Shown here piece by piece: positions 11,745-60,253 of a DNA stretch of 63,787 nt (positions within the stretch are counted from its first letter, which is position 1; every line of letters begins with the position of its first letter). The position numbers and the translations under genes are program-made. Location: NCBI RefSeq assembly GCF_004010195.1, contig NC_057760.1, forward strand, positions 4,262,446 to 4,326,232, given 5' to 3'. Origin of the DNA: Chiloscyllium plagiosum. Its lineage: Eukaryota. The notes under the pieces are model-generated. The model did no database searches and was not told the origin of the DNA. It saw nothing but the letters and a program-made list of their open reading frames with translations.

Positions 11745-12100
11745 TCAGTTCAGTCGTTTAAGGTTGCTTCCATTTCCTGACACGGTTTCAATATCCTTCC
11801 TTATATCTAGAATGATAAACTCCAATTTCTGATCTGTTGTAAGTTGCTCTGTGATGCAAACTGATCTTTTTGCAGCACAGAGGGTTTTGTACCCATATTC
11901 TGGATTTCTTTCGATGCTGCAGGACCTGGGAAGATTTTGGATAAGGTTGAGAGACACTCGCTGATTGTTAACATGTTCATTTGAGGGTATTTGCTCGCTT
12001 TCTTTTCTCTTCCACTGCTTCATGAAGAGATAGATGCAAACAGATACAATGACGAATACCATGACAGCCATCAGCACAAAGAGGAGGTGAAAGGTCCTTC
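11745..12100 (-). CDS. Jagged-like Notch ligand, terminal exon (transmembrane helix + about 90 aa cytoplasmic tail)
   Basis: tttttcattacag|GA AGG; phase 1 fits exon E. Hydrophobic LLFVLMAVMVFVIVSVCIYLFM, stop-transfer KQWKRK, then VNNQRVSLNLIQN resembling the Jagged tail NNVREQLNQIKN. TGA at 11745-11747. Confidence 0.85.
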
Positions 12101-12559
12101 CTGTAATGAAAAATAGAGATGGTTTATCCATCCTTATTTTACCACTATTTATATTGGTCACTCTTCCTGAAGCAGATTAATGAGTAGGGTATAAGTAATG
12201 GACTGTAGACACAGTAAAAGGTTTTAGTTGAAAATTACAGTCCCCCAGTAATAAATTTTGGACCTGGTAATAGATCATAATCCCAGTATTGGTAATAGTC
12301 CCACTAACAGGTAGTAGTTGCAATAATAGACTGTGGTCCCAGTTTTAGGCTACAGGCCTAAGGTATATTCCCAATTAAAGAATACAATCTGTGTAAATGA
12401 AATAGAGGGAAGGTTCAGTTGCATAGAAAATTATGGAAAAATATTAAAGGTGGGAGGGCTCAGCAGAGATTAGTAAAGTATCCAAAACAAGAAATATGAC
12501 AGGGTCAGGAATGGAAATTCAAGCACTAGCAGATAAGAGGATAACTATGAGAAGGGGGA

Positions 12560-14120
12560 CAATTAACTCAGGACTGAGGGTATCACACTTAAATGTACAC
12601 AGTACACGAAACAAAATAAAAACGCATTGAATTGAAATTAGCATACCAACTGAAATTAGCAGGTATGATGTTGTGTCTGTAACAGAGATCAGGGCTGGGA
12701 CCTAAATATCCAAGGTTACATGTCCTATCAAAAGGACAGGATAATGGCAGAAGGGACAGAGTTGCCTCGATCGTACAAAGTAAATTAAATTGATAACAAT
12801 AAGTGATATAGAGTTGGAAAGCATAGAATCCGGATAGGTAGAGTTGAGGAACCACAAAGGAAAAATACCATGATGGGAGTTATGTGCAGGCCTCTTTGCA
12901 GTAGTCAGGATGTGGGGAAGAAAATAAATTAGAGGATAGAAAAGACATGTAAGAAAGACACTGTTATAATAATCATAGGGGACTTCACTGTGCAGGTGGA
13001 CTGGGAAAATCAGGATGGTAGCAGATTTCAAGAAAAACAATTCATGGAATGTTTACCAAGAGGAATTTCTTTAGATAGAGGGTAGTTAATCTGTGGAACT
13101 CTTTGCTGCAGAAGACTGTGAAGGCCAAGTCATTGAGTATATTTAAGACAGAGATAGATAGATTCATGTTGAATATTCGTGTGCTGGAAAAGCATCCAAG
13201 GATCAGGAGAATTGACGCTTCGAGCATGAGTTCATCATCAGGAATGAAGATAGATTCATGATTAGTAAGGATTATGGGGAGAAGGCGAGAGAATGAGGTT
13301 GAGGTACATATCAGCCCTAATTGAATGGTGCGGCAGACTCGATAGGCTGTATTGCTTAATTCTGCTCATATACTTTATAGTCTGGCTATAGTTACAGACT
13401 ACAATAGGGAAAGGAATATATGAATTACAACAGGACCATGAGAAGCACTAACAATCAGAAGGATCTCAGAGTGCAAGTCCATCAGTCACTTAAGGTAGTG
13501 GGACATGGAGATAAAGTGATTAAGAAGGTTAATGGGAACTTGCTTTTATTAGCTGAGACACAGTGTTTAAAAGCAGGGGCCGGGGAGTGGGGTTATGCTG
13601 GAACTGCATAAAATGTTGGTTCGGCCACAGCTACAGCATTATATGCAGTTCTGGAATCCACATTATAGAAGAGTTGTGAGAGCAGAGAAGATTTACCAGG
13701 ATGTTGCCTGGATTAGAGATGGAGAGAGTTTGGATAGATTGCTGTTTTTCTTGGTGCAAAGGAGACTGATGGGCACATGGTTGAGATGCACTAAATCATG
13801 GGGGGCAGGAAGGAACTTTTCCCTTTGATGGCTGGCTCAATGAGCAGGCAGCATAGATTTCAGGCAAGTGGCAGGAAGTTTAGCATTTTTATTTGATCCA
13901 GAGGGTGGAGGGAAACTGGAAGGTCTCTGCCTGTAAGGATGGTTTGAGCAGAAATCCTCATAGCATTTAAGAAATATGTACTTGTGCACTTGCGATATCA
14001 AGGCATACTATGTGTCAAGTGGCGGAAAATGGGATTAGAATAATTAAGTATGTGTTTTTGATTGATATAGACTCAATAGGTTGAAAGGCCTTTTTTCTTG
14101 CTGTCAACCTTTATGACTCT
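12560..14120 (+). mobile_element. Cluster of old CR1 fragments (endonuclease and 3' regions) with a small Penelope-hairpin remnant near 13175-13245
   Basis: GDF..VDWE, LVRPQLQH..QFWNPHY motifs and CR1 3' ends. Confidence 0.6.
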
Positions 14121-14764
14121 ATCAATGACTCCAACAGGCTAAAGTCCTCGCAATAGATCATAAATTCCAGCAAAAGGCTATAGACCCTGTAATGGGTTAT
14201 ATTCCCATGTTTATTTTATATAGTCCCATGGAGCTTGAACCCTTGATGATCTGATACAGAGGTCAGGGCAATGGAGGAATCCAGCCAGGTGGACAAGTGA
14301 AGTGTTTCGTCAGTGAAAAAGTTGGTGATAATTATGACAAGACAGTTCCCTCAGGAGGAGCTTAGTGGAAGTGTTCACCCATACACCATCATGAGGACCA
14401 TGAGTTCACTGCAGCAGTGGGCCGCAGAGTTGGGTGGTGCTCCTGAATATCTATCCTGATGTACCCAGCCCAATATGGTGTCATTGTACCATGAGAAGAC
14501 TGAGAAGTTACAATCTAACACATAGGAGGATCCCTCTCAAGCCACTCCATGGACTGACAGATATTCCCAGACCTCTCTGACAGTGACCTGACCCCTCCAG
14601 TGGCCACAGAGAAGGCACTTGTCCTGAAGAGCCTCTTAGTTGCGCTGGACCTTACACACCTGGGACATTAAGACTATGCCTAGCACAGTCATCGAATTCC
14701 ACAGTGTATGGAAAGCAACAGCATGCCTCCAAGTCATCTGTCATACTTTAGGACGATGCAATGA

Positions 14765-15320
14765 CTGTAAAGAGGATGCAGAGAAGACCTAAAGGAATCA
14801 TTAGTTAGAAGCAAGATTTTAGATATATGTTGAGACTGGGAAAGCTGAGATAGATCTCCTTTGAAGAAAAGGGGATTGGAAAGAAGTTGGATAAAAGTGT
14901 ACAAGATTAAATAAGTTGAACAAAATAAACCTAGAAAAGCTGTTCCCATTAACTGATGGTGCAAGGACTAGGGATGTAGATGAAGAGTTTACGTGAGAGC
15001 ATGGTTTATCCTGCTCCTATCTCTTAAATTCATCTAAAATAGTGAGGGAGGGTAATGCACAGAGGACATGAGGAAGCACATTTTTATCCAGTAAATGGCA
15101 TTGATCTAGGAGTTTCTGTCTTTAGGAGCAGTGAAAGTGGAGATGATGAATGACTTCAAAACAAGATTTGATGGGCACTTGAGGAAATTGAACATACAGG
15201 ACTACAGGAATACAGTAGGAGACTGGGGACTGATTGAATGGTTCTAAAGCCAGCCAGTATAGATACAATGGGCTGAATGACTTCCTTCTGTGCCAGGACC
15301 CTATAACCCATTGTACATTG
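14765..15320 (+). mobile_element. Old CR1 3' fragment
   Basis: Decayed ORF2 C-terminus and the atgggctgaatgacttccttctgtg 3' motif. Confidence 0.5.
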
Positions 15321-15496
15321 AGGGAAGACAGTCTAATAAGAAACAAAATACCTGTAGTTCACAGTCACCCTTGTGCAATGGATCCAATATAGTGCCTGCG
15401 CACAATCTCTGCATAGCAACGGAGAAGTAACTTTTTACACAGTAATGACGTGCTTTACCATGACCAGAGATGACTGATTCAGCTGAAAGCACAGAC

Positions 15497-15647
15497 CTTG
15501 GCATGTGCCACTCTGGCAGGTGTCTGTAATGTGAGAACAATTCTTGCCTTCGTATCCATCAGGACAGGAACAAAAGTAACCATGCTGCATACTGTAACAC
15601 GTGGCTCCATGCTGACAGAGATTGATGTGACATTGTCCTGCAATGAC
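15497..15647 (-). CDS. Jagged-like Notch ligand, exon E (EGF9 + first two Cys of EGF10; JAG1 exon 13 equivalent)
   Basis: ttccccatag|GTC ATT... translates VIAGQCHINLCQHGATCYSMQHGYFCSCPDGYEGKNCSHITDTCQSGTCQ, then G|gtctgt. 151 nt, phase 0-1; YEGKNCSH is identical to JAG1. Confidence 0.9.
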
Positions 15648-16641: not shown

Positions 16642-16803
16642 CTCACAGTGTCTTCCTGAGAATCCTGGAAGACACTGGCAATAAAAGCCATTGACGGTGT
16701 GTACACAGTGTGCTCCATTCAGACAGGGAGAGCTGGAGCATCTTTCAGCTCTGGTCTCACAGTAATTTCCTGTGTAGCCTCCTGGGCAGTTGCATTGATA
16801 TTT
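16642..16803 (-). CDS. Jagged-like Notch ligand, exon D (C-half of EGF7 + EGF8; JAG1 exon 12 equivalent)
   Basis: tttcccctcag|AAA TAT... translates KYQCNCPGGYTGNYCETRAERCSSSPCLNGAHCVHTVNGFYCQCLPGFSGRHCE, then |gttggt. 162 nt, phase 0-0. Confidence 0.9.
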
Positions 16804-22182: not shown

Positions 22183-22229
22183 CTGACAGATACCACCATT
22201 TTGACAACTTGTGGAACAGTCTGAGGTAC
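22183..22229 (-). CDS. Jagged-like Notch ligand, exon C (N-half of EGF7; JAG1 exon 11 equivalent)
   Basis: ttctgtttcag|GT ACC TCA GAC TGT... translates TSDCSTSCQNGGICQ, then |gtatga. 47 nt, phase 1-0, the same size as JAG1 exon 11 as recalled. Confidence 0.85.
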
Positions 22230-23559
22230 CTGAAACAGAAGGCAAAAAAAAATTGTACTATCATCTGGGATCATACAAGTGGATTCTTTTGACTGACATT
22301 TGAAGCCACAGAATTTAAGAGATCTGTGCTTCTGTAAAGCATAACACTAGAGTATCATGGTGAAATTTACTCTGCAGATTTGATTTCTAGTTGGCTTTAA
22401 AATGTTGTTAATACTGTTCTGAGAGTAGAAGATTATTTGATAGCTTTCAATAAGGCTAGAAAGTAGAAATCAAAACAAAGTCTTGTATGGAGGAAAATCT
22501 GAACATGATTATTGATTATTTAGAATCAAAATAAGGGAAACCTGAAGTTAAGGTGTTAGTGCTAGAATTATCTATGGTACAGTTAGATTTTAAAAAAAAA
22601 ATAATTAGAGGAAGAAAAGAAAGAGAAAATAACATATTTAAGCAGCAAGAAAATGAAAAGTGCAAGAAATCAGGAGGGAAAGGAAAGTAAAAGAGAGCAA
22701 TGGAAGGGGAAAAAGAATTCAAAAAGCCTGAACTCCAATCAGACAGAAAGATTAGACAGCATAATCTGGCCAGTGAAACACTTAACATAAAGAAGAAAAA
22801 TATGTAACTTGAAGCATGAATCTAATTTTAATTAAGGGTTGGATTTAACTGAAAAATCTATTGTGGGTGTTAAAGGGTAGAGAACCTGTGGAATTTACTG
22901 CCACAGGTGGCTGTGGAGGTCAATTCACTGAATATATTCAAAAAAGAGATGAGTGTCGATCCCTGCTCCTAGTTTTTATGTTTCTAAATTAATTGAGGAT
23001 GAAGTTACAAAATATTTTACTTTATTTGCAAAGCTTGCTGGACTGACAAATTGGTCAAAAGAAAACAGCAGTCAGCTATCTGTTCTAAGAAACGTTTGGA
23101 TGTGATGGGAAAACAACATGGAACCTTAATGCATAAAAATGAGAATTGGTTATCATCTAACTTTGTCAGAAGGAATGCCTGAGACCTGATGGAATGAGGG
23201 TACAGATGACAGATATATTAATTATGACTTAACTAAGCGTGGCTTGGTTGAATAAATATGGGAAGCTAGTATTCAGTGCGATGTGTGTTTAATGAAATAT
23301 AGTTAATTGAAATAAAGTTCTCGCTAAAAATATGCACTGGGACTCAGTATAAATTCAGTTTCTTCTAGTATATGACACGGACCTAACGCAACTAAGTGTT
23401 TTGACAGGTGCAGAAGTGACTGCATACATGGGTTTGTCAGAAGAACAATCTGGAGATGAAGTTCTTAAAGAAGCAATATTCAATGTTGGTCCCTGAAACT
23501 TAGGCAATTGAAATCTAGAACTACAAGAAATGGACATTGGTAGAATTTTCAAGGGTAGA

Positions 23560-24930
23560 GGTGATCGCCTAGTGGGGTTGTTGCTGGTCTCGTTAAACCA
23601 GAGAGTCAGGTGATGTCCTGTGAATCTAGGTTTGAATCTCACTATGGCAAATGGTGGAACTTGAATTCAATAAAATATCTGTCATTTCAGAACAGAAATG
23701 CGGAGACATTTCTTCAGCCAGAGAGTGGTGGGCCTGTGGAATTCATTGCCACGGAGTGCAGTGGAAGCCGGGACGCTAAATGTCTTCAAGGCCGAGATTG
23801 ATAGATTCTTGTTGTCTAGAGGAATTAAGGGCTACGGGGAGAACGCTGGTAAGTGGAGCTGAAATGCGCATCAGCCATGATTGAATAGCGGAGTTGACTC
23901 GATGGGCCGAATGGCCTTACTTCCACTCCTATGTCTTATGGTCTTATCTGAAACAAAGAGTTTCATGATGATCCATGTAATCAATGTCAAATGCCATCCG
24001 GTTCACCAATGTACTTTCGGGAAGGTAAATGCTATCCTTACCTGGTTTGGCTGAGTTGTGACTCCAAACACACAGCAATGTGGTTTCCTCTTAAATGCCC
24101 TCTCAAATGACCCATCAAACCACTAGAAAGTCTTAAAACAATGAAACCAGGCAGACCAACTGGCATTAATAAAGGCACTGGAAGAGGCAATGGCAACTCC
24201 GTTCTGTCAAATCTGCAAACATCTCCTTACCAATATCCAAGGGCTAGTGCCAAAATTGGGAGAGTTGTCTCACACACTACTCAAGCAACAGCCTGACATA
24301 ATTATGTTCATATAATCATACTTTACACACAATGTCCCAGACACCACTGGCAAGTCTGTAGAGGTGGTGGTACAGTGAGCGGTATACAGTTGGGAGGGAG
24401 TTGCTCTGTGAGTCCTCAATATTGACTTCAGACCCCATGAGGTCTCATGGCACCAGGCCAAACATTGATAAGGAAAATCCTGCTGATTCACATGTACGGC
24501 ACTCGAACCCCACATACACACACACCCCACATCCTTCCACACTTCCACTAATGAATTGGTGCTCCTTCATGTTGAACACTATTTTAAAAAGCACTGAGGG
24601 TCGCAAAGATGCAAAATGAATTTTGGGTGGAGAATTTCAATGTTCACTGTCACCTTGCAAAGCCATTTCCACTTCCATCTAGAAAGCCAAGAGTTCCGTG
24701 CACATGGGAACACCACCACTTGCAAGTTCCCCTCCAAGCCAATCACCATCCTGATTTGGAAGTATATCGTTGCACCTTCAGTGTCACTGGTTTTAAATTC
24801 TGGAATTCCCTCTTAATGGCATTGTGGTCTACCTACAGCACATGATTGTAATGGTTCAGGAAGGCAGCTCACCAATACCTTCTTAAGGGCAACCAGGAAC
24901 AGGCAATAAATATTGGCCACATCCCATGAA
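23560..24930 (+). mobile_element. CR1-group (L2/Crack-like) LINE with a SINE-like 5' head, internally deleted; contains a CR1 3' end at 23690-23947
   Basis: Endonuclease start (GLVPKLGELSH..LKQQPDII) and 3' end (aaggcagctcacc...aataaa) shared with other copies. Confidence 0.6.
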
Positions 24931-25095
24931 CACATGATGGAAATGATGTGGGACCAATAGTTCTGATCACTGAAGTTAGAGAACTTTAAAAACTAAAGAG
25001 AAGTCTATCGTTATTGAAGAATTCAGAAATTGCATTCTTGAAAACTTAAATGTATTTTAATGAGCATCAAGCATCAAAGTTTAAAGAAGCACTAT

Positions 25096-25414
25096 GGGGC
25101 GGCATGGTGGCTCAGTGGTTAGCACTGCTGCCTCACTGTGCCAGGGTCCCAGGTTCAATTCCACCCTCAGGTGACTGTCTGTGTGGAGTTTGCACATTCT
25201 CCCCATGTCTGTGTGGGTTTCCTCCGTGTACTCCAGTTTCCTCCCACAATCAAAAGATGTGCAGGTCAGGTGAATTGCCTGTGCTAAATTGCCCAGGGTG
25301 TTAGGTGCATTAGTCAGAGGGCAATGGGTCTGGGTGGGTTACTCTTTGGAGGGTCGGTATGGATTTGTTGGGCCGAAGGGCCTGTTTCCACACTGTAGGA
25401 AATCTAATCTAATC
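25096..25414 (+). mobile_element. HE1-type tRNA-derived SINE, full length
   Basis: A box TGGCTCAGTGG, B box GGTTCAATTCC, CR1-like 3' end gggccgaagggcctgtttcc, (AATCT)n tail. Confidence 0.9.
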
Positions 25415-25905
25415 ATATCTCACAAAGACAGTTACATCTGAGGAGATGGTCATATGGAATTAGGGGTATAAAATGTGTACAATGTAGAGATACTAGTTTT
25501 AGAGAACATGTAGAAGGAAACCGACATAATAAAGTATTATCTATAACCAGATATTGTTAGAAATAAATGAAGATGTTTTGATTGTATTCAGACTGGAACA
25601 AAAGCCATTTGCTGGAAGTTAAATGGGAGACCAATTACTATAGTGAGAAGATCCAAAGCATCCTCAGAGAAGGGGACATCAGGAAAAGAAATGGGGATCA
25701 AAACTGTATGGTAATACAAAAGAGAACATATTTTCTTACTAAAAAGGGAGAGATAACCAAGGAAAGTCAAGAAAATCCTTCTTTGAATATTGTATTGATA
25801 AAGAGAGTCATCCAGTGGAGGCAGAATATTTTATCTCAAAATGGGGGGATATTTCCTTATACTTAGAAAGATATCGAGACACACTGCAGCAAGTGCTAAT
25901 GATTC

Positions 25906-28810
25906 TAGAACATAGAACATAGAACATAGAACATAGAACAGTACAGCAAAGAACAGGCCCTTCAGCCCACGATGTTGTGCTGACCACTGATCCTCATGTA
26001 TGCCCCCTCAAATATCTGTGACCATATGCATGTCCAGCAGTCTCTTAAATGTCCCCAATGACCTTGCTTCCACAACTGCTGCTGGCAACGCATTCCATGC
26101 TCTCACAACTCTCTGTGTAACGAACCCGCCTCTGACATCCCCTCTATACTTTCCGCCAACCAGCTTAAAACTATGACCCCTCGTGTTAGTCATTTCTGCC
26201 CTGGGAAATAGTCTCTGGCTATCGACTCTATCTATGCCTCTCATTATCTGTATACCTCAATTAGGTCCCCTCTCCTCCTCCTTTTCTCCAATGAAAAAAG
26301 TCCGAGCTCAGTCAACCTCTCCTCATAAGATAAGCCCTCCAGTCCAGGCAGCATCCTGATAAATCTTTTCTGAACCCTCTCCAAAGCATCCACATCTTTC
26401 CTATAATAGGGCGACCAGAAATGGACGAAGTATTCCAAGTGCAGTCTAACCAAAGTTTTATAGAGCTGCAACAAGATCTCATGACTCTTAAACTCAAACC
26501 CCCTGTTAATGAAAGCCAAAACACCATATGCTTTCTTAACAACCCTGTCCACTTGGGTGGCCATTTTAAGGGATCCATGTACCTGCACACCAAGATCCCT
26601 CTGTTCCTCCACACTGCCAAGAATCCTATCCTTACTCCTGTACTCAGCTTTCAAATTCGACCTTCCAAAATGCATCACCTCACATTTATCCAGGTTGAAC
26701 TCCATCTGCCACCTCTCAGCCCATCTCTGCATCTGTCAATGTCCCACTGCAGCCTACAACAGCTCTCTATACTGTCAACGACACCTCCAACCTTTGTGTC
26801 ATCTGCAAACTTGCTGACCCATCCTTCAATCCCCTCATCCAAGTCATTAATAAAAATTACAAACAGTAGAGGCCCAAGAACAGAGCCCTGTGGAACACCA
26901 CTCACCACTGACTTCCAGGCAGAATATTTTCCTTCCACTACCACTCGCTGTCTTCTGTTGGGCAGCCAATTCCCTATCCAGACAGCTAAGTTCCCCTGAA
27001 TCCAATTCCTCCTGACCTTCTGAATGAGCCTACCATGGGGAACCTTATCAAATGCCTTGCTGAAGTCCATATAAACCACATCCACAGCTCGACCCTCATC
27101 AACTTTTCTAGTCACATCCTCAAAGAACTCGATAAGGTTTGTGAGGCATGACCTGCCCCTCACAAAGCTGCGTTGACTGCATTTAATCAAGCCATGCTCT
27201 CCCAGATGGTCATAAATCCTATCCCTCAGAATCCTTTCTAACACCTTGCAGATGACAGACGTGAGACTTACTGGTCTGTAATTGCCGGGGATTTCCCCAT
27301 TTCCTTTCTTGAAGAGAGGAATTACATTTGCCTCTCTCCAGTCCTCAGGTACGACTCCAGTGGAGAGCGCGGATACAAAGATCTTCGCAAGTGGCGAAGC
27401 AATTGGATTTCTTGTTTCCCAAAGCAGCCGAGGACAAATCTGGTCCAGGCCTGGCGACTTGTCAATCTTAATGTTTGACAAAATTTTCAGCACATCAGCT
27501 ACTTCTATCTCTATCCATTCCAGCATGCACACCTGCTCTTCAAAGGTTTCATTCACTACAAAGTTTGTTTCTTTCGTAAAGATGGAAGCAAAAAACTCAT
27601 TTAGGGCTTCCCCTACCTCCTCAGACTCCACACACAAATTCCCTATGCTATCCCTGATCGGCCCTACTCTTTCTTTGACCATTCTCTTATTCCTCACGTA
27701 AGTGTAAAATGCCTTTGTGTTNNNNNNNNNNNNNNNNNNNNNNNNNNNNNNNNNNNNNNNNNNNNNNNNNNNNNNNNNNNNNNNNNNNNNNNNACCACCT
27801 CTCTCTCTGTCCCCGTCTTTCTGTACCACCTCTCTCTGCCCACTCTGCCTCTCCTCTCTCTCTGTCCCCCCGCTCTCAGTCTACCACTTGTCTGTCTCAG
27901 AGGGACATATTTATTCATCATTTGCAACAACTGTTCCTTAAACAGTCTCCACATGTCTACAGTGCCTTTACCATGGAACAATTGCTCCCAATGCATGCTT
28001 CCTAACTCATGTCTAATCGCATCATAGTTTCCTCTTCCTCAATTAAATATCCTCCCATTTTGCCTAATCCTCTCCTCCTCCATAGCTATGTAGAATGTGA
28101 GGCAGTTGTGGTCACTATCACCAAAATGCTCTCCCACCACAAGATCTGATACCTGCCCCGGCTCATTTCCGAGCACCAAGTCTAGAATGGCCTCTCCCCT
28201 CGTCGGCCTGTCAAAGTACTGAGTTAGAAAACCCTCCTGAACACACCTTACAAAAACAGCTCCATTCAAATCTTCTGCTCGAAGGAGGTTCCAATCAATA
28301 TCAGGAAAGTTAAAGTCACCCATTACAACAATCCTACTACGTCCACATTTTTCCAAAATCTGCCGACCTATGCTTTCTTCCATCTCCCTGCTGCTACTGG
28401 GGGGGCTTGTTGTAAACCCCTAAAGAGGTAACTGCTCCCTTGCTGTTTCTAATTTCCACCCATAATGACTTGGTAGGCAGATCTTCCTCTCTGATTAGTA
28501 GTGATACACCCCCTCCTCTTTTTCCCCTCTCCCTATTCTTTTTAAATGCTCTAAACCCTGGAACATCCAGCAACCATTCCTGCCCCTGAGAAACCCATGT
28601 CTCTGTTATGGCCACAACATCACAGCACCAGGTACTGATCCATGCTCTAAGCTCATCACTTTTATTCCGGATATTCCTTGCGTTAAAGCAAATACACTTT
28701 AACTGATCCCTGGTTCCTTCCCAGGAAAATCCTTCCGACTAGCTTGTCTACCTTTTGCTATTGCCTGATCTGCATCAACTCTCACCTCCGGTATACAGCT
28801 CAGGTTCCCA
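25906..28810 (-). mobile_element. CR1 LINE ORF2, relatively young, with frameshifts, a gap and a CT-rich insertion
   Basis: ORFs 26675-27829 and 26244-26732 contain [30 protein letters not shown] and KFADDTK; (AGAACAT)n tail at 25906-25940. Confidence 0.92.
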
Positions 28811-29249
28811 TCCCCCTGCCATACTAGTTCTATTTGTTTTCCAGAGGAGTGAAGGAGAAAATATTAATTGGAGATATTGTAGAGGTCACAAACTACCCCC
28901 CATTATGAGATTTGGACCAAAGACAGACTTAGCAAATAGAGATGTTGTAGTTGGACAAGTGAAACACGTCCATATAGAAGGACTGATTATATATTGGAAA
29001 ATTAATTGGCAGATTCAAGAATGTCTCACCAAGGAAAATGGAACAACAGCCGAAATAAAAGAAACTGAAATACTATAGGAGAAGCATCCAGGATTATACC
29101 CTGACTGTATTGTGACAAAATCTCAGACCCATAGAATCAGAAAGGAAGTAGATGAGTCTGTGGGGAAAGGAGACATAGAAATTTAGTTATCATACAGAAT
29201 ATTTCAAACTAGAATAAAAGGGATGTGGGTAAAGAAAATTAGGTTGATG

Positions 29250-29870
29250 GGAGAATGGAATGGGGGTAGTACTGACATGAACAATGAAATGGCTGGCAGA
29301 CAGGAAAAAACATGAGTAGGAATAAACAAGTCTTTTTCTGGGTGGCAGCCAGTGATCGTTGGGTATTGAAAGGTTCAATACTGGGATCCCAGTTATTTAA
29401 CATTAATGATCATTGATTACGAAACGAATTGTAATATCTCCAAGTTCACAAGCAACATGAAACTGGGTGGGAGGATAAACTGTGAGAAAGATACAGAGAT
29501 AATTCAGTGTGATTTGGAGAAGTTGAGTGAGTGAGCAAATGTACGGTGCATGTAGTATATTGTGAATAAATGTGAGGTTATCCACTTTGGGAGCATAAGC
29601 AGGAAGGCAATTATTATCTGAACGGGAACAGATTGGGAAAGTGCAACAAGACCAGGGTGACTTTGTCCACCAGTCATCCAAAGTAAGCATGCAGGTGCAG
29701 CTGGTAGTGAAGAAGGCAAATGTTATGCAGGACTTCAGAATGAGATATTCAAGTTCACAAGCATGTATGTGTTGCTACAATTGTACAGGACATTGGTGAG
29801 ACCACCTGTGTGCAGTTTTGGTCTTCATATCTGAGAAAGGATATTCTGGCAATGGAGGGAGTGCAACTAA
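29250..29870 (+). mobile_element. Old CR1 RT/3' fragment
   Basis: Decayed GSILG, KCEVIHFG and LYRTLVRP motifs. Confidence 0.6.
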
Positions 29871-30816
29871 ATTCATTTTAACCACCCTGTTCATATACCA
29901 TATCAAATCAAAAAGAAACTCAGTGATGTAAATTATATAGTGAGTACTCCTGACAAGATGAAATATCAAAGATTGTATCATGTTAATTTATCAAAGAGAT
30001 ATTATGACAGGGAGGATAGTCATGAGAAAAGTATATTTAAGGTATGAGTTAGAATTAGAATTAGATTTTAAAATCTAATTCTAATTCAAGTGAAAACTGT
30101 AAGTCACCATTTTTTGGCACCATCTTAAATACAAAAACCAGAATTAAAACAAAACAAAAGCAGAAATAAAAGAAACAGAGCCAAGAAGAAAGGGAAACAT
30201 CCAGATCTTAAAGTCTTATTTCCATCAAGAGAGCGACCTTTTCTGAAGCCCAAGTCATTCAGGCCCAGCCATGGCCTGGAGCCTTGTCCAGTTTGCAACA
30301 TGCTTCTTTGTTGACGTCCTTGTCCTGACTTTGCTGGTTCTGGCACTGCTGGTGGTGGCTCCCGGAACTCGGGCCTCAATTGTAGGACCTTTGCTGCCAC
30401 TCCCACCCGAAAATATCAGAGTAATTGGAGAATTAATCAGAAATCGAAAATTTTAAACTTGATCCTCCAGCAATGAGATTGGATCTTATGGAGGTGTTAA
30501 GAGATTAGATGGCAAGATACTTTATTATACAGAAAACTATCTAAGTGCCTTACAAAGGCTATTTTAGATGCATAAACAATATGTGTTTAAAGTCCAAGAA
30601 AGAAAATCTTTGACTGTTCATTATGTCCATGTAGTGTGTGTGTTACCTATAGATTCAATTTAGAGAAATTAACTCAAGATTAAGTTCATGGTAGACAATT
30701 ACTGGAACTCATCTATTGTGACAGTGCCAAAAACCAGAAGGATTGCAAAGACTCTGCAAGAAATCAATGCAATAAGAGAACTTGTATTCCAAGAATGAAA
30801 TACTGCTCAAAGAATT

Positions 30817-32870
30817 GAACAAAGAACAAAGAAGAACAAAGAAAATTTACAGCCTAGGAACAGGCCCTTCAGCCCTCCAAGCCTGAGCCGATCCAAATGT
30901 ACTGTCTAAACCTGTCGGTCAATTCCTAAGCATCTGTATCCCTCTGCTCCCCACCTACTCATGCATCTGTCCAGACGCATCTTAAAAGAATCTACCGTGC
31001 CTGCCTCTACCACCTCTACTGGCAATGCGTTCCAAATGCCCACCATCCTCTGTGTGAAGTAATTACTGTGTGTATCCCCCTTAAATTTTCCACCTCTCAT
31101 CTTGAAAGCGTGACCTCTCGTTATTGAATCCTTGACCCTGGGAAAAAGCTTGTCTCTATCCACCCTGTCTACACCCTTCATTATTTTGTAAACATCAATC
31201 GGATTCCCCTTAATTTCCTTTTTTCTAATAAAATAAACCTAACCTACTCAACCTTACTTCATAGCTAGCACCTTCCAAACCAGGCAACATCTCGTAAACC
31301 TTCTCTGCACCCTCTCCAAAGCATCCACATCCTTTTGGTAATGTGGCAACCAGAACTGTACACCGTATTCCAAATGCGGCCGAACCAATGTCTTGTACAA
31401 TTTTAACATGACTTGCCAGCTCTTATACTCAATACCCCGTCCAATGAAGTCAAGCATACTATATGCCTTCTTGACCACTCTATCCACCTTTGCAGCAACC
31501 TTCAGGGTAAAATGGACCTGCACTCCCAGCTCTCTCTGCCCATCAACTTTTCCCAAGGCTCTTCCGTTCATTGTATAATTCGCTNNNNNNNNNNNNNNNN
31601 NNNNNNNNNNNNNNNNNNNNNNNNNNNNNNNNNNNNNNNNNNNNNNNNNNNNNNNNNNNNNNNNNNNNNNNNNNNNNNNNNNNNNNNNNNNNNNNNNNNN
31701 NNNNNNNNNNNNNNNNNNNNNNNNNNNNNNNNNNNNNNNNNNNNNNNNNNNNNNNNNNNNNNNNNNNNNNNNNNNNNNNNNNNNNNNNNNNNNNNNNNNN
31801 NNNNNNNNNNNNNNNNNNNNNNNNNNNNNNNNNNNNNNNNNNNNNNNNNNNNNNNNNNNNNNNNNNNNNNNNNNNNNNNNNNNNNNNNNNNNNNNNNNNN
31901 NNNNNNNNNNNNNNNNNNNNNNNNNNNNNNNNNNNNNNNNNNNNNNNNNNNNNNNNNNNNNNNNNNNNNNNNNNNNNNNNNNNNNNNNNNNNNNNNNNNN
32001 NNNNNNNNNNNNNNNNNNNNNNNNNNNNNNNNNNNNNNNNNNNNNNNNNNNNNNNNNNNNNNNNNNNNNNNNNNNNNNNNNNNNNNNNNNNNNNNNNNNN
32101 NNNNNNNNNNNNNNNNNNNNNNNNNNNNNNNNNNNNNNNNNNNNNNNNNNNNNNNNNNNNNNNNNNNNNNNNNNNNNNNNNNNNNNNNNNNNNNNNNNNN
32201 NNNNNNNNNNNNNNNNNNNNNNNNNNNNNNNNNNNNNNNNNNNNNNNNNNNNNNNNNNNNNNNNNNNNNNNNNNNNNNNNNNNNNNNNNNNNNNNNNNNN
32301 NNNNNNNNNNNNNNNNNNNNNNNNNNNNNNNNNNNNNNNNNNNNNNNNNNNNNNNNNNNNNNNNNNNNNNNNNNNNNNNNNNNNNNNNNNNNNNNNNNNN
32401 NNNNNNNNNNNNNNNNNNNNNNNNNNNNNNNNNNNTTAGCATGGCCAATTCACCTGACCTGCACATCTTTGGACTGTGGGAGGAAACAGGAGCACCCGGA
32501 GGAAACCCACGCAGACACGGGGAGAATGTGCAAACTCCACACAGTCAGTCGCCTGAGGAGGGAATTGAACCCGGGTCTCTGGAGCTGTGAGGCAGCAGTG
32601 CTAACCACTGTGCCACCGTGCCGCCCAAATATCCCTATGTCAATGTGATCCAGACTAATCCAAACTTCTATCTCTAATCTCAACATTCATCATGTTCCTC
32701 TCCTCAGTGAACACTGATGCAAAGCAAAATATCAATCAGAATCTCACCCATTCTCTCAGGTTCGACACACAACCTTCCTTCATTATCCTTTAGTGGACCA
32801 ATCCTTTTTCGAGTAACCCACTTGCTTCTTATATAAGAATAAAATGCTTTGGGATTCTCCTTAATTCTGG
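30817..32870 (-). mobile_element. CR1 LINE 3' half spanning the gap at 31585-32435
   Basis: LYKTLVRPHLEYGVQFW before the gap and KENPKAFYSY after it; gaacaaa-type tail. Confidence 0.85.
32436..32626 (-). mobile_element. HE1-type SINE (5' part)
   Basis: Reverse complement of gggcggcacggtggcacagtggttagcactgctgcctcacag...ggttcaattcc. Confidence 0.85.
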
Positions 32871-35630: not shown

Positions 35631-35634
35631 TATA

Positions 35635-38074: not shown

Positions 38075-38317
38075 AAAATGTGTTGCTGGAAAAGCGCAGT
38101 AGGTCAGGCAGCATCCAAGGAGCAGGAGAATCGACGTTTCGGGCATAAGCTCTTCTTCAGGAAGAGTAGAGTATGTGTTAGAGTATGATTCCCTGAAGAA
38201 GGGCTTATGCCCGAAACGTCGTTTCTCCTGCTCCTTGGATGCTGCCTGACCTGCTGCGCTTTTCCAGCAACACATTTTTCAGCTCTGATCTCCAGCATCT
38301 GCAGTTCTCACTTTCTC
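38075..38317 (-). mobile_element. Penelope-derived fold-back element with 13-bp TSD
   Basis: Inverted arms about 38075-38161 and 38192-38279; TSD ctagtagacctgt at 38062-38074 and 38318-38330. Confidence 0.82.
38192..38220 (+). ncRNA. Minimal hammerhead ribozyme motif (a second copy on the minus strand at 38133-38161)
   Basis: CUGAAGA - A GGGC(uuau)GCCC - GAAAC GUC. Confidence 0.5.
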
Positions 38318-39994: not shown

Positions 39995-40140
39995 TGCAAT
40001 GTTATACTATAAGAGTGATGTGGAGGAGCCGGTGTTGGACTGGAGTGGACAATATTAAATGCCACACAACACCAGGTTGGAGTCCAACAGGTTTATTTGA
40101 AAACACTGGTTTTCAGAGTGCCACTCCTTCATCTGGTAGC
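39995..40140 (-). mobile_element. Penelope terminal-repeat fragment
   Basis: Reverse complement of the 55522-55645 terminus (ccggtgttggactgg...acacaacaccagg). Confidence 0.65.
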
Positions 40141-42500
40141 TTTCTTTATTCATTTGTGGGACTTGGGAGTCACTGGCTGGGCCAGCACTGATAGCCCATC
40201 CCTATTTGCCCTTGAGAAGGTGGTGGTGAACTGCCTTCTTGAATCGCTACAGTCTACTTGCTGTGAGCTGATCCACAATGTCGATAGGGAGGGAATTCCA
40301 GGATTTTGGCCCAATGATTGTGAAGGATTGGTGGTATATTTCCAAGTCAGGGTGATGAGTGGCTTGGAGAAAACCTTGCAGGTCATGGTGTTCCCAAGGA
40401 CCTACTGCCCTTGTCCTTCTAGATGGAAGTTGTCGTGGGTTTGGAAGGTGCTGTCTAAGGATCTTTGATGAATTTCTGCAGTGCATCTTGTAGCTGTACA
40501 CACTGCTGCTACTGAGTGCCAGTGGTGGAGTGAGGAGTATTCCATCTTACTCCTGACTTGTGCCTTGTAGATGGTGGATAGACTTTGGGGTATCAGGAGT
40601 GAGTTACTCACTGCAGTAACCCTAGTCTCTGACCTGCTCCTATAGCCACTGTGTTTCCATGGTGAGTCCAGTTGAGTTTCTGGTCAGTGGAGGATTCAGT
40701 GATGGTAATACCGTTGAATGTCAAGGGACAGTGGTTAGAGTGCCTCTTATTGGTCACAGTCATTGTCTGGCATTTGAGTGACGTGAATGTTACTTGCCAC
40801 TTGTCAGCACAAACCTGGATATTGTACAGATCTTGTTTCATTTGAGCATGGACTGTTGCAGTATCTGAGGAGTCGCAAATGGTGGTGAGCGCTGTGCATT
40901 CATCAGTGAACATCCCTTATTCTGACTTTATGACAGAGGGAAGGTCACTGATGAAGCAGCTGAAGAATATTGGGCCTAGGAGACTACCATGAGGGACTCC
41001 TGCAGAGATGTTCCAGAACTGAGACGACTGACCCTCCACAAACACAACCACTTTCCTTTGTGCCAGGTATGACTCTACCAGTGGAATGTTTGCCCCCGAT
41101 ACTCATTGATTCCAGGTTTGCCAAGGCTTCTTGATGCCATACTTGGTCAATTGGAGCATTGATGTCAATCTCACCTCTCCTCCGGAATTCAGCTCTTTTG
41201 TCCAGTGTTTGAACCAAGGCTGTAATGAGGTCAGGAGCTGAGTGCCCCTGGCGAAAGCCCAAACTGGGCGTCACTGAGCAGGTTTTTGCTGAGCAGGTGC
41301 TGCTTGATAGTTCTGTTGATGACACCTTCCATCACTTTACTGATGATGGAGAGTAGGCTGATTGGGCAGTAATTGGCCGAGTTGGATTTGCCCTGCTTTT
41401 TGTATACAAGACATACCTGGCCAATTTTCTACATTGTCGGGTCAGTGTTGTAACTGTACTGGAAGAGCTTGGCTTGGGGAGCAGTAAGCTCTAGAGCACA
41501 CGTCTTTAGTACTATTGCTGGAATGTTATCAGGGCCCATTGCCTTGGTAGTATCCAGTGCCTCTAGCCATTTCTTGATAACACATAGAATGAATCAAATT
41601 AGATGGAGCCTGGTATCTGTGACGCTGCGGACCACTGGAGGAGCCCGTGATAGATCATCCACTCAGCACTACTGACTGAAGGTTGTTGCAAATGCATAAA
41701 CCTTAACTTTTGCACTGATGTGCTGGACTCCTCCGTCATTGAGGATGGGCATATTTGTGGAGCCTCCTCCTCCACTGAGGGGTTTAATTATCCACCACCA
41801 TTCACAACTGGATGTGATAGGACTGCAGAGCTTAGATCTGATCCATTGACTGTGGGGTCACTTAGTTCTGTTAATCACTGGCTGCTTATGCTGTTTCACA
41901 CGCACGTAGTCCTGTTTGGTAGCTTCACCAGGTTTAGCCCGCATTTTTAGGTATGCCTGATGCTGCTTCTGGTATGCCTTCTTACACTGGCTTGATGGTA
42001 ATGGCTGAGTGGGGGTATGCTAGGCCATGAGGTTATAGATTGTGCTAGAGTACAATTCTGCTGCTATTGATGGCCCACAGACCCTCACGGATGCCCAGTC
42101 TCAAACTGCGAGATCAGTTCGAAGTCTGTCCCATTTAGCACAGTGATAGTGCCACACAACATGGAGGTTATTCTCAATGTGAAGGCAGGATTTCATCTCC
42201 ACAAGGACAGTGCGATGGTCACTTTTACCAATACTGTCATGGACAGATGAGTCGGCAGCCGGGAGATAAGTAAGGATGAGATCAAGTATGCTTTTTCCTC
42301 TTGTTGGTTCCCTCACCACCTGCCACAGACCCAGTTGAGCAGTTATATCCTTTAGGACTGGACCAGCTTGATCAGTGATGCTGCTGCCAAGCCACTCTGG
42401 GTGGTGGACATTGAAAACCCCACCCAGAGTATATTTTGTCCCCTTGCCACCCTCAAAGCTTTCTCCAATGTTGTTCAACATGGAGGAGTACTGATTCATC
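40135..42500 (-). mobile_element. CR1-group (L2/Crack-like) LINE, endonuclease + RT, degenerate
   Basis: QVVREPTRGKSILDLILT, GKSDHRTV, GFRQGHSAPDLITALVQ, MFTDEC, DKWQVTF. Confidence 0.8.
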
Positions 42501-42529
42501 AACCAAAGGACAGTACATGGTAACCAGTA

Positions 42530-44214
42530 AGCTGTGAAGCTGGACCATAAGACACAGAATTTATAGCAAAACATTATAGTGTCATGCAACTAAAATGATA
42601 TATTGAACAAACCTAGATTGTTGTTAAGACTTTCATCTTTTAGAATGAGTTGCAGGTTTCAGTTCCTTAATATGTAAATCCCAGAACTTCTTTTAAGTCA
42701 AATTCTCAGGATAACTGAAGGTTTTATAAGAAAAGGTGACATCTCAGCTCAGACAATGCATTAAAGGTGTGAGATTACAGTCTGTCTGTATCCCAATCTT
42801 GAGTCACTAGTTCTGTTTCTAAAGTGGAATTTATGAAATATTACATGGATTGACTGCCTGCAGTTTTTTGAACAAAATAAAATGTATCTGCAAATACAAG
42901 TCTGCAAATACAAATTTACCCCACAAATTTACCCCAATATGCCAACATTTTCATGCACAGGTTCAAACAGGACTTCTCTGCTTCACAGACCTCCAACCAA
43001 CACTATACACCAGATATATTGACAATATTTTCTTCCTCTGGACCCATGGCGAGGAGTCAATGAAACAACTACACAGTGATATCGAGTTTTATCCAACCAT
43101 CAGTCTTACTATGGAGTACTGTTTGGTATCGGTCTCATTCTTGGACGCATGCATCTCCATTAAGGATGGGCGCCTCAGTACCTCACCCTACCACAAACCC
43201 ACAGATAACCTCATGATGCTACGCTTCTCTAACTTCCACCCGATACATATTAAAATAGCCATCCCCTACGGACAATCCCTACACGTACACCAGATCTGTT
43301 CAAATTAGGAAGAACCTGAAGGTGCTCAAGGATGCCCTTACAAGAACAGCGTATGATGCTCAACTCATCGACCCCCAGTTCAAATCTGCCACAGCGAGAA
43401 ACTATAATGACCTCCTCAGGAAACAGACACGGGATGCAACTGATAGGGTTCCCTTCGTTGTCCAGTACTTCCTGGGATGGAGAAACTACGTCATGTTCTT
43501 TGCAACCTGCAACACATTATCGATGAGGACGATCACCTCGCCAAGACCTTCCCTGTGCCTCCACTTCCCACCTTTATAAACAACCGCCAAACCTTAAACG
43601 GACCATTGTTTGCAGCAAACTGCCCAACCTCCCACTCAAAATCGACCACAACACAGTACAACCCTGTCATGGCAACCACTGCAAGATGTGTCAGAGTGTC
43701 AACATAGATACTACCATTACACGTGGGGACACCACCCACCATGTACAGGTACTCATGTGTCTCGACCAACATTGTCTATCTCATACACTGCAGGCAAGGA
43801 TGCCCCAAGGCATGATACATTGGCGAGACCAAGCAGATACTACGACAATGGATGAATGGACACTGTGCAACAATAACCAGATAGGGGTGTTCCCTCCCAG
43901 TTGGGGAACACTTCAGCAGTCAGGGACATTCAAACTCAGATATTCGGGTGACCATCCCAAGACAGGCTTTGGGATAGGCAACAACGTAAAGTGCCCAAGC
44001 AGAGACAGATAGCCAAATTCAGCACTCATGGGGATGGCCTAAACCGGGACCTTGGGTTCATGTCACACTACAGGTGACCCCACTACACTATACACTCACT
44101 CACACACAAGCACACATACAGACACACTCACGCAGACCCTCTCTCATACACACGCTGTCACACACACACATTCATACTCACCAGCCCACACTCACATGGA
44201 CACTTTTTCTCTCT

Positions 44215-44245
<31 letters not shown>

Positions 44246-44775
44246 ATGCATGCGCACACACATATAAGTCTTTGGGGTGAATTTGTATTTGCAGAATCAT
44301 ATTTGCAGACACATTCTATTTTGCTCAAAAAATACACAATCAGCAGGCAGTCAATGCAGGCAGTCAATCCATGTAATATTTTATAAATTCCACTTTGGAA
44401 ATAGAACCAATCTGACTCAAGATTGAGATACAGACAGACACTAATCTTACACCTTTAATGCATTGTCTGAGCTGAGATGTCACTTTGTTTTTTAACAAAA
44501 CTTTAAAGTTATCTCGAGAATGTGACTTAAAAGATGTTGTGGGATTTACATATGAATGAATTGAAACCTGCAACCTATTGTAAAACTTGGAAGACTTAAC
44601 AGCAATCTAGGTTTGTTCAATATATTATTCCAGTTGCATGACACTGTAATCTTTTGCTATAAATTCTGTGTATTATGGTCCTGCTCCACAGCTACCTGAT
44701 GAAGAAGCAGCACTTCGAAAACTAGTGCTTCCAAATAAACCCGTTGGACTATAACCTGGTGGTGTGTGATTTTTA
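42530..44775 (+). mobile_element. Penelope-like element (third family) with an inverted copy of its 3' terminal repeat at the 5' side
   Basis: RYIDNIFFLWTHGEE, KPTDNLMML, NIVYLIHC..YIGET; 42530-42925 is the reverse complement of about 44270-44695. Confidence 0.85.
44085..44262. repeat. (CA)n/(CT)n-rich microsatellite inside the Penelope 3' region
   Basis: Imperfect CA repeats and a CT run at about 44208-44245. Confidence 0.85.
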
Positions 44776-44956
44776 ATGATGTCATAAGAAAATCGTGTGA
44801 TATCAGCACCATTTAAACCAATGGGGTAGCAATCACGTTATAACCAATACATGCTTTAAAACTTCACACTTTAGAAAAATATCCTCAATTTGTCAATCGC
44901 GTTACAGCGAATCCATCTTAATGAAACACGCGTTACAGCGAAATGACTTTACTGTA
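44776..44956. mobile_element. Possible Tigger/pogo-like DNA transposon terminus
   Basis: Duplicated cgcgttacagcga motif and an ...ACTG-TA end; only one end seen. Confidence 0.4.
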
Positions 44957-45320
44957 TTAAGAATGCAATTGCAGCTTTGACCAGTAGATGGAATTACAGG
45001 GCAACTTTCTGTCTAACTCCACAGATCTAGATATTTTAATCAGCCTATTCAGGCACACCTCTGCAACTAGGAGTCTCAGCCTCAGGTCCCACTTACCTCA
45101 CAATACCCCTACCATTACACCAGAAGAGTCCCAGTTTCCCACAGATTTATCAACTGCTATTCATCATCTAGTTATGACTGATTTATATATGAATGAATAT
45201 GTCACTATTTGTGAATGAATTCACTAATGTTAAATGACTTAAGATGGCTGCTTGGAATAGTTTATTATATCATACAACCATCATATACCATGTGATGTCC
45301 AATCACAGGTAAAAACTTAC

Positions 45321-58600: not shown

Positions 58601-59713
58601 TCTAGTCTCGCTTCAATCTGCTGATGGCTGAGTACGTTTATAAGGTGATGTATTTCTTAATCCTCCCAAGAGTCTGCCACAAAATCAAAGCTGAAATCAG
58701 CTTCTAGTTTGGAAAGGTTTACCTCAGAATACAACTAACCATTAACCATGCACAACTCTAACAACTGAACTTTCACTGATGAACACAGCAATTGGCCAAG
58801 TCCTTAGATCTTATCTGTATTGAAACAGGCTTTTGTTTTACAACATGGAAAGAGTTTGAGCCATTTTATTCTTTAAATCATTGGGGATTGGCAGGAGACA
58901 GCTGTTCTCTGGATGAAGAAAGTTGTTCAAATTTCAAAACAGCAAGCACAGACATTCCCCCCTCACTCCCTTCCTAAGGTACAGGCTAATTCATTTGGAT
59001 ATATGCATCTGCAGCTGTCAGTACCACAACCATGTGGCCATGCTTCAGAACTTTGCTCAGCCAGTCACTCCTCAACAATGGGTAGCATTTCAGCATCACC
59101 ACAAGTTCACAGGCAACAAGTGCCTTGGGTTGTGACTGGGAACAAGGAAAGCTGGCTGAAGATTTCATTCAACACCAGGGAAACTGAGGGCAATTAGAGC
59201 TCCTTTTCTTTTCCATGTGTCTGGGAACTGTTTGTATCCTGAGCCTCAAAACCAGGTCATCAAACACTTTATGCCCCAATCTCTGGAATTCCTTTATTTA
59301 ATTTCTATATATTTGAACTGCGCTCTCCTCCTTTCAAGCTCTCTATGACAACCTCTCCCAATGCTAATGAGTCTCAAACAGTGGATCACCTAAACAATGA
59401 GTGGGATTGCAGAAAATGAAATCACATTTACCTCACAGCATGCAATATAATTGTCAGGCTTAATAAAGGCATGTTCACAACTAATCAAAGACAGTGCAGG
59501 AAATCCTTACTCTTTACCCTAGGACTTCTACATGGTGCAATATGTGTGATTTCAGCTGAAGCAGTGGCAGCCTCAATGGAAGTCCCTTCAGTTACTTCAT
59601 TTCTGATTACTGCAGTGATACTGGTCTTAATCAAAAAATGCAATTCCCCCTCCCCTCTTTCCACCACCTCTGTCCCACCTAAAGCACCTGCACCGTGATA
59701 CCTTACATCCTTC

Positions 59714-59810
59714 ATGGTAACCTCAGCCAGTGATGGGAATTAGCCCCACAGTGTTGGCATCACACTGCTTCACAAATCAATTGTCCAGCCAACTGAGCTA
59801 CACCAACCCC
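59714..59810 (-). mobile_element. tRNA-derived SINE head (not HE1-type)
   Basis: Minus strand ggggttggtgTAGCTCAGTTGG (A box) followed by a decayed B box. Confidence 0.55.
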
Positions 59811-60122
59811 ACATGAATGCACATGGCAATGAGCATGTTTCATCCTGATTCTTAGATCTTCCAAAAATTGTGTTCTTAAAGCAACACAGTTGTTAAAGCA
59901 AGAACAAATCATCTCCCACTCCAATTCCCAATGCATCATGAATTAAAAATCCAGCTTTAGGTAACTAGGAGACACCCTCCAATCCAACTTCCTGGCCTCC
60001 CAACCTCAGCACCTTATAAACGATACAGTTGGACAGTGATCTTCATGGGGTAAATCATTGGCTAATGTTCTTCTCCTTCCCACTCACATATTATGGTCTT
60101 TCCGCACATCATCATGTTTTAC

Positions 60123-60253
60123 CTTTGTCACAGAGGATGCCACCCCAGTTAGTCTCACAGTCACACTGCCAGGGTTCAGAGCATGTTCCATGAATGCAGC
60201 CTGGGAATGGAATGCACATGCTGCAAAGGACCCCTTGCCAACCATAGTGACAC
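60123..60253 (-). CDS. Jagged-like Notch ligand, exon A (end of EGF1 + EGF2; JAG1 exon 6 equivalent)
   Basis: ctgcag|G TGT CAC TAT... translates [43 protein letters not shown], then G|gtaaaa. 131 nt, phase 2-1. Closely resembles JAG1 [43 protein letters not shown]. Confidence 0.93.

What the first reader, a model, noticed from the sequence alone, without database searches (positions are those of the whole stretch)
11745..60253. 'Mini-Jagged': a Jagged/Serrate-type Notch ligand with Delta-like length, joined from EGF9 straight to the membrane
Seen: six minus-strand exons with GT-AG ends splice into one open frame of about 321 aa (EGF1 end, EGF2, 3, 7, 8, 9, TM, tail). Known, from memory: canonical vertebrate JAG1/JAG2 have 16 EGF repeats plus a Cys-rich domain, and JAG1 exons 6, 7, 11 and 13 are 131, 120, 47 and 151 nt, the sizes found here. 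Inference: this is a divergent extra Jagged paralog with about 6 EGF repeats and no Cys-rich domain. It could be a short-reach activator or a cis-inhibitor/decoy. I cannot tell whether it has been described; automated pipelines may label it jagged-like or delta-like.
Basis: partly seen in the sequence, partly recalled or inferred. Interest (0 to 1): 0.9.

Follow-up and report, generated by a model that had tools for sequence, protein, structure and literature searches.

The report
Overlooked third vertebrate Jagged ligand
This shark gene belongs to a third, shortened Jagged-type Notch ligand, separate from JAG1 and JAG2, that also exists in many fishes, amphibians and reptiles and is filed in databases under the names of the other two.

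Summary
Six GT-AG exons give 321 aa. Five more exons lie up to 31 kb beyond the window (signal peptide, C2, DSL, start of EGF1); all eleven splice to an intact 572-aa protein identical to a RefSeq model named 'jagged-1b'. The genome has separate long JAG1 and JAG2 loci. A sevengill-shark model has the same layout, so assembly gaps are an unlikely cause.

The gene is not shark-specific. It sits in a third Jagged clade (99/97 support) beside JAG1+JAG2, with members in sharks, ray-finned fishes, coelacanth, amphibians, squamates and turtles. The usual form is C2-DSL-EGF1-9, a two-Cys stub, TM and tail, without EGF10-16 or the Cys-rich region. These sharks also lack EGF4-6.

The Notch-binding end and Mind-bomb-type tail motifs are conserved, so a short-reach activating ligand is most likely (about 0.6, inferred, untested). 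This species' copy has an early stop that removes the conserved C-terminal motif, which may weaken it.

Nine literature searches found no description; paywalled papers were not searchable. No RNA reads were obtained for this species. Verdict: a new variant of a known kind, interest 0.7.

The parts
60123..60253 (-). Exon 6 (131 nt): end of EGF1 and EGF2 (DOS region)
   Evidence: same size as JAG1 exon in this genome
45321..45440 (-). Exon 7 (120 nt): EGF3
22230..45320 (-). 23-kb intron where JAG1 has three 114-nt exons (EGF4-6); holds three assembly gaps (27722-27793, 31585-32435, 34288-35141); no EGF4-6 remnant in the sequenced part
   Evidence: gaps; best tblastn E 0.16; same join in the Heptranchias model
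22183..22229 (-). Exon 8 (47 nt; JAG1 exon 11 equivalent): first half of EGF7
16642..16803 (-). Exon 9 (162 nt; JAG1 equivalent is 174): second half of EGF7, 4 residues short, and EGF8
15497..15647 (-). Exon 10 (151 nt): EGF9 and the two-cysteine juxtamembrane stub (start of the old EGF10)
12101..15496 (-). 3.4-kb gap-free intron where JAG1/JAG2 carry EGF10-16, the Cys-rich and the juxtamembrane exons
   Evidence: no N; best tblastn E 4.5 for those domains
11745..12100 (-). Last coding exon: transmembrane helix and cytoplasmic tail with NN motif and N-box-like LIQN; ends at TGA 11747-11745
11664..11744 (-). 26 in-frame codons after the stop that still resemble the conserved C-terminal motif of orthologues (8 of 26 identical to Heptranchias, 7 of 26 to coelacanth): relic of a longer tail

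Best explanation
This is the shark member of a third vertebrate Jagged paralogue (provisionally 'short Jagged'; the name jagged3 was once used for zebrafish jag1b). Identity: about 0.95. It most likely arose in an early vertebrate genome duplication as sister to the JAG1/JAG2 ancestor and lost the exons for EGF10-16, the Cys-rich and the juxtamembrane domains, joining the exon that ends in the first two cysteines of EGF10 to the TM exon. Sharks then lost EGF4-6. Mechanism (inferred): a single-pass surface protein that binds Notch on the neighbouring cell through C2-DSL-EGF1-3 as JAG1 does, is ubiquitylated by Mind bomb through its NN and N-box-like (and, in most species, C-box-like) tail motifs, is endocytosed and so pulls Notch open. 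It would act as a Jagged-type binding head on a Delta-length stalk. In this species the early stop removes the C-box-like motif, which should make it a weaker activator with more cis-inhibition. Shown: gene structure, domain layout, clade, motif conservation. Inferred: timing of origin, Notch binding, Mib1 use, signalling direction.
For: Intact 11-exon frame, 572 aa; Pfam MNNL, DSL, JAG-type EGF2, no PF23575. Six DSL and six MNNL loci in the genome, on C9 (2), C10 (2), C41, C51; long JAG2 on C10, JAG1 on C9 with EGF4-6 exons and a PF23575 hit. Tree on C2-EGF3 only, 47 rows: 17 of 17 short forms are one clade (99/97), JAG1+JAG2 another (97/96), and the short clade follows the species tree. AU tests reject shark short forms with JAG1 (p 0.0006) or JAG2 (p 0.003). 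81 of the 120 listed hits are short forms with a TM; 60 have 9 EGFs, 17 have 8. Of the 81: NN 81, three or more tail lysines 81, two-Cys stub 78, L/I-I/V-x-N 75, family C-terminal motif 75; that motif is in 0 of 114 long forms. The N of LIQN aligns with JAG1 N1124, called pivotal for MIB1 binding in PMC11887331. Conservation to Heptranchias is highest at the binding end: DSL 36/46, EGF1-3 87/105, against TM+tail 61/117. Whole short proteins of 684-760 aa lie on Logan contigs of 2.2-4.2 kb, which implies spliced mRNA in other species (inference).
Against: No binding or signalling data. No exon reads in the two single-cell runs laid, which were read at only about 2% and 6%. This copy looks relaxed: end branch 0.22 against 0.08 for Heptranchias and 0.05 for a bamboo-shark JAG2, EGF7 four residues short, early stop. 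Only three shark species turned up; no ray, chimaera or other carpet-shark orthologue was listed. The N-box-like motif lacks the lysine and the PIEK half of the JAG1 box. JAG1+JAG2 support fell to 87/95 in the 25-row tree and the position of cyclostome genes is open, so 'first duplication' is not shown. Synteny evidence is one gene family; no PHR, PLC-beta-C, Pacs-1 or SERTA match was listed on C51.
Confidence: 0.6

Rival explanations
1. Same paralogue, but it works mainly as a cis-inhibitor or decoy (like mammalian DLL3, recalled): it binds Notch in the same cell, or competes with long Jagged, and dampens signalling.
For: Short stalk, further shortened independently in sharks, Polypterus and snake models, so reach seems unconstrained. 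The N-box-like motif is degenerate, and this copy has lost the C-terminal motif. In Drosophila Delta, weaker Mib1 interaction lowers signalling and raises cis-inhibition (PMC11887331 passages). RefSeq isoform X4 lacks the TM.
Against: NN, N-box-like and C-terminal motifs and lysines are kept in 75-81 of 81 orthologues; the DSL and DOS regions are canonical, unlike DLL3 (recalled); Delta ligands of the same length activate (established knowledge).
Confidence: 0.25
2. The family is functional elsewhere, but this species' copy is decaying towards a pseudogene.
For: Early stop with a diverged relic behind it, shortened EGF7, long branch, patchy presence in cartilaginous-fish protein sets, no reads seen (weak test).
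Against: Eleven exons over 83 kb with canonical ends, no frameshift or internal stop; the six window EGFs keep their cysteines; four RefSeq isoforms differ in splicing, which usually reflects RNA support (inference).
Confidence: 0.11
3. Assembly or annotation artefact: EGF4-6 lie in the three gaps of the 23-kb intron, or the locus is a broken JAG1/JAG2.
For: Three N gaps (72, 851, 854 nt) lie where three 114-nt exons are expected. The sawshark model lacks EGF7-9 as well, showing that models can drop exons. No spliced read across 45321-22229 was obtained.
Against: The Heptranchias model from another assembly has the same EGF3-EGF7 join; 4 of 4 RefSeq isoforms have it; a genome-wide search with a 9-EGF orthologue listed no EGF4-6 exon on C51 (stricter look, lower bound); the last intron has no gap; JAG1 and JAG2 exist separately. 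At most this would restore the 9-EGF family form, not a long Jagged.
Confidence: 0.04

Closest known systems
JAG1 (vertebrate Jagged1; PDB 4CBZ, 5UK5)
   Same: C2-DSL-EGF1-3 head (E 5.6e-130); exon sizes 131/120/47; EGF7-9 assigned by repeat-specific profiles; NN and N-box-like tail motif.
   Different: No EGF4-6 (sharks), EGF10-16, Cys-rich or juxtamembrane domain; two-Cys stub before the TM; tail ends differently (JAG1 EYIV; bony-fish short forms mostly ELEV; here KRLN); separate clade, AU p 0.0006.
JAG2 (PDB 5MW7)
   Same: Same head (E 3.8e-125); DSL motif RPRNDFFGH identical.
   Different: Same losses as above; AU p 0.003; a long JAG2 lies on C10.
Delta-like ligands (DLL1, DLL4, DeltaC/DLL3 group)
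   Same: Overall length and layout: C2, DSL, 6-9 EGFs, TM, no Cys-rich domain.
   Different: Sequence and exon structure are Jagged: Delta rows form their own side of the tree at 100/100; three Delta-type loci exist separately.
Database models 'jagged-1b', 'jagged-1-like', 'jagged-2-like', 'Delta-like protein' of 580-820 aa
   Same: These are the same family: this locus is XP_043540049-52.
   Different: They are automatic names; Heptranchias has two proteins both called jagged-1b, of 604 and 1214 aa. None names a third paralogue.

Membership tests
Canonical DSL Notch ligands | N-terminal C2 (MNNL) domain followed by a DSL domain | tested here: met
   PF07657 187 bits, PF01414 69 bits; exons at C51:4352303 and 4338544
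Canonical DSL Notch ligands | EGF repeats, with the atypical EGF1-2 (DOS region), then one TM helix and a cytoplasmic tail | tested here: met
   hydrophobic 21-mer at residue 460
Canonical DSL Notch ligands | Tail motifs for Mind bomb and lysines | tested here: inconclusive
   NN and LIQN aligned to JAG1 N1124, 8 lysines; the C-box-like motif is cut off by the early stop; equivalence with the JAG1 C-box rests on alignment and recall
Canonical DSL Notch ligands | Binds and activates Notch in trans | not testable with these tools
   needs binding and reporter assays
Serrate/Jagged class (by descent) | Groups with Serrate/Jagged, not Delta, on the shared domains; Jagged exon structure | tested here: met
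   100/100 split from Delta; exon sizes
Serrate/Jagged class (by architecture) | 14-16 EGF repeats | tested here: not met
   6 here, 8-9 in 77 of 81 short orthologues
Serrate/Jagged class (by architecture) | Cys-rich (vWC-like) and juxtamembrane domain | tested here: not met
   no profile hit; nothing in the gap-free last intron
JAG1 orthologue | One clade with JAG1 | tested here: not met
   AU p 0.0006; JAG1 is on C9
JAG2 orthologue | One clade with JAG2 | tested here: not met
   AU p 0.003; JAG2 is on C10
Delta-like class | One clade with Delta | tested here: not met
Whole-genome-duplication ohnologue of JAG1/JAG2 | Lies in a paralogous chromosome block | tested here: inconclusive
   an ERR gene 68 kb upstream has its best paralogue on C9; four other marker families gave no listed match on C51

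The most novel reading that the evidence does not exclude
Vertebrates have had a third, undescribed Jagged since the first genome duplication (a short hagfish Jagged with the same two-Cys stub may belong to it). It is a natural Jagged-head/Delta-stalk ligand with its own conserved tail motif and a membrane-proximal cysteine pair that could link dimers, lost in mammals, and missing from the accepted list of Notch ligands in fish, salamander and lizard models.
Probability: 0.45. Interest if true: 0.85.

Novelty: new variant of a known kind. Interest (0 to 1): 0.7.

Why it matters
The usual list of vertebrate Notch ligands is two Jagged and three Delta-like genes (PMC10277265 passages; nine named for zebrafish in PMC1781496). 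A further ligand in teleosts, axolotl and lizards, mislabelled jag1b or jag2 in annotations, could confound expression studies and explain weak jagged knockouts in those animals (inference). It is also a natural deletion series (9, 8, 7, 6 or fewer EGFs, no Cys-rich region) for testing what stalk length and the Jagged-specific membrane-proximal domains do.

Tried and rejected
RNA evidence: no RNA holder was listed; laying two single-cell runs gave no exon reads (72 reads in X5, all only partly fitting and none in the exon-containing bins; 0 in X6), so it is no test; X1 and X3 behave as DNA. They list no variant at the stop codon.

Structure: the AlphaFold model from a 3-row alignment had mean pLDDT 39 and was not used; no fold search or complex prediction was run.

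My strict DOS-motif pattern matched only 42 of 81; printed examples show single substitutions such as H to Y in percomorphs, so I draw nothing from that count.

Hagfish P0362 (537 aa): joins the short clade at only 82/95 on a branch of 1.77; kept as a lead.

In one search I mislabelled the reedfish protein P0189 as JAG2; it groups with JAG1 and was left out of the later trees. My first splice attempts had wrong exon ends, fixed.

The Atlas search for the upstream neighbour exon gave nothing. A wider gene-order survey of C51 was not possible, so synteny stays thin. One structural paper on the JAG1-Notch1 interface was not held, so contact residues were not checked against a source. Earlier scan findings: none near this place or sequence; five by the word 'jagged', all unrelated.
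Full report
1. Observation. A six-frame scan found EGF motifs on the minus strand at 60258, 45363, 16794, 16680 and 15572. The exons are 60253-60123, 45440-45321, 22229-22183, 16803-16642, 15647-15497 and 12100-11745, with canonical ends and matching phases, giving 321 aa. The window has four assembly gaps, three in the 23-kb intron.

2. The rest of the gene. The genome (3.56 Gb) has six DSL and six MNNL matches. One pair lies just beyond the window. Counting on from window coordinates, the upstream exons are 94725-94660, 90178-89870, 81937-81877, 76352-76098 and 72090-72030. All eleven give 1719 nt, 572 aa plus stop, equal to RefSeq XP_043540049.1, 'protein jagged-1b isoform X1 [Chiloscyllium plagiosum]'. 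Four isoforms are on record; all four join EGF3 to EGF7. Profiles built for each JAG1/JAG2 repeat assign C2, DSL, EGF1, 2, 3, 7, 8, 9 (the EGF7 score is low, 21 bits).

3. It is not JAG1 or JAG2. JAG2 lies on C10 with matches from residue 19 to 1219 of a shark JAG2. JAG1 lies on C9, with exons of 131, 120, 114, 114, 114, 47 and 174 nt in the 10 kb examined and the only PF23575 hit. tblastn with EGF4-6 and with EGF10-to-juxtamembrane parts found nothing in the two long introns (best E 0.16).

4. Artefact test. The tail found three clusters among 58 candidates: this one, Heptranchias perlo (604 aa) and Pristiophorus japonicus (463 aa). Heptranchias has the same six EGFs, stub, TM and tail, and also a 1214-aa JAG1. 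The sawshark model has only EGF1-3, which may be a model error. I obtained no spliced reads.

5. A vertebrate-wide family. A search with the Heptranchias protein gave 958 hits, 120 listed. Of the 120, 81 have a TM and none of EGF10-16, Cys-rich or juxtamembrane domains; 4 short ones without a detected TM were dropped; the other 35 carry those domains. EGF counts in the 81: nine in 60, eight in 17, seven in 1, six in 2, three in 1. Named sources include sturgeons and paddlefish, Polypterus, gar, bowfin, many teleosts, coelacanth, caecilians, salamanders, lizards and turtles; snake models are shorter still. No mammal, bird, crocodile, frog, ray or chimaera short form was among the 120; since 838 hits were not listed, that is not proof of loss. 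Several whole short proteins sit on Logan contigs of 2.2-4.2 kb, which I read as spliced transcripts.

6. Tree. On C2 to EGF3 alone (305 columns, 47 rows, so the deleted parts play no role), the 17 short forms I chose form one clade at 99/97, with sharks sister to bony vertebrates, and JAG1+JAG2 form another at 97/96. With 25 rows the values were 97/95 and 87/95. AU tests reject the three shark short forms with JAG1 (p 0.0006) or JAG2 (p 0.003). This pattern fits a first duplication that split short Jagged from the JAG1/JAG2 ancestor, but cyclostome placement is open. A 537-aa hagfish protein with C2, DSL, five EGFs, a two-Cys stub and a TM falls in the short clade only weakly (82/95, long branch). 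Synteny is thin: JAG1 and JAG2 both lie within 1 Mb of a PHR-domain gene, C51 has none listed; an ERR-type nuclear receptor exon lies 68 kb upstream of the start codon and its best paralogue (73%) is on C9.

7. Mechanism. The head is 57-60% identical to the best long Jagged proteins over residues 20-335 and aligns without large gaps to solved JAG1 and JAG2 fragments. In the tail, NN is in 81 of 81, L/I-I/V-x-N in 75, a family motif K-x-D-x(1-2)-N-x-E-R-x-K-L-N in 75 (0 of 114 long forms), and 32 end in ELEV. The N of LIQN aligns with JAG1 N1124. PMC11887331 (passages) states that MIB1 binds JAG1 by an N-box and a C-box, that N1124 is pivotal, that the C-box matters less, and that weaker binding lowers signalling and raises cis-inhibition in Drosophila Delta. 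That the family motif is the C-box rests on alignment and on my recall of where the JAG1 box lies. I infer a Mib1-dependent activating ligand with a short stalk (0.6). The two-Cys stub is in 78 of 81; it may close on itself or link dimers (untested). This species' copy stops 26 codons early, before the C-terminal motif; the relic is 8 of 26 identical to Heptranchias. With the short EGF7 and long branch, this suggests relaxed selection, hence the decoy (0.25) and decay (0.11) rivals.

8. What is known. By descent it is a Jagged; by architecture it fails both Jagged hallmarks and resembles Delta. Nine searches of the open library listed no paper describing a third or short vertebrate Jagged; I saw listings and abstract starts for these, and passages of four papers. 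PMC1781496 gives jagged3 as an old name of zebrafish jag1b. PMC10277265 lists five vertebrate ligands from five species. PMC8968733 concerns Dll1/Dll4. The five 'jag3' hits are human cell or cancer papers, seen as listings only. I opened no supplements; supplementary trees, subscription journals and Ensembl gene trees may already show the clade. The gene models themselves are public under wrong names.

9. Verdict. Real, intact, and part of an apparently undescribed third Jagged lineage; a new variant of a known kind. Interest 0.7: surprising for a much-studied pathway and directly testable in fish, but function is inferred and prior description cannot be excluded.

Noticed in passing
window 4604-5623, minus strand: Open frame of a rhodopsin-family GPCR (PF00001, E 1.4e-18) 6 kb downstream of the Jagged gene, with a likely first exon near 6000-6080; resembles the GPR139-like expansions of sharks (recalled).
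   Followed up: partly
L016:8627-8893, minus (G000:C51:4424859-4425125): Last exon of an estrogen-related receptor, best match ERR-gamma; may be the ERR-delta gene that mammals lack (recalled, not tested).
   Followed up: partly
L014:8793-9020 and L015:8700-9284, plus: Exons that look like KCTD3/SHKBP1 (recalled; no Pfam or Atlas support).
   Followed up: partly
G000:C10:2025912-2026250: The C2 exon of JAG2 is on the opposite strand and 143 kb away from the rest of the gene: probably a local assembly inversion.
   Followed up: no
L005 (G000:C10:87.22 Mb): A third Delta-type gene, 0.45 Mb from a PLC-beta gene, whose DSL resembles skate proteins named delta-like protein 4. PMC8968733 says Dll4 is absent from cartilaginous fishes. 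Its DSL exon scored higher against DLL1 than DLL4 in PDB, so orthology is untested.
   Followed up: partly
protein P0011 (cichlid, 650 aa): A jagged-like model with C2, DSL and five tandem EGF1-EGF2 pairs and no TM.
   Followed up: no
G000:C12:87644423-87644671: An ERR-like match (64%) inside a 1613-aa open frame; odd for a nuclear receptor exon.
   Followed up: no
window 15465-15497 and 15548 region, minus: RefSeq isoforms use other donors in exon 10: X2 drops the two-Cys stub, X4 shifts frame and loses the TM; X3 skips EGF1-2. Possible soluble or stub-less forms, unverified.
   Followed up: no
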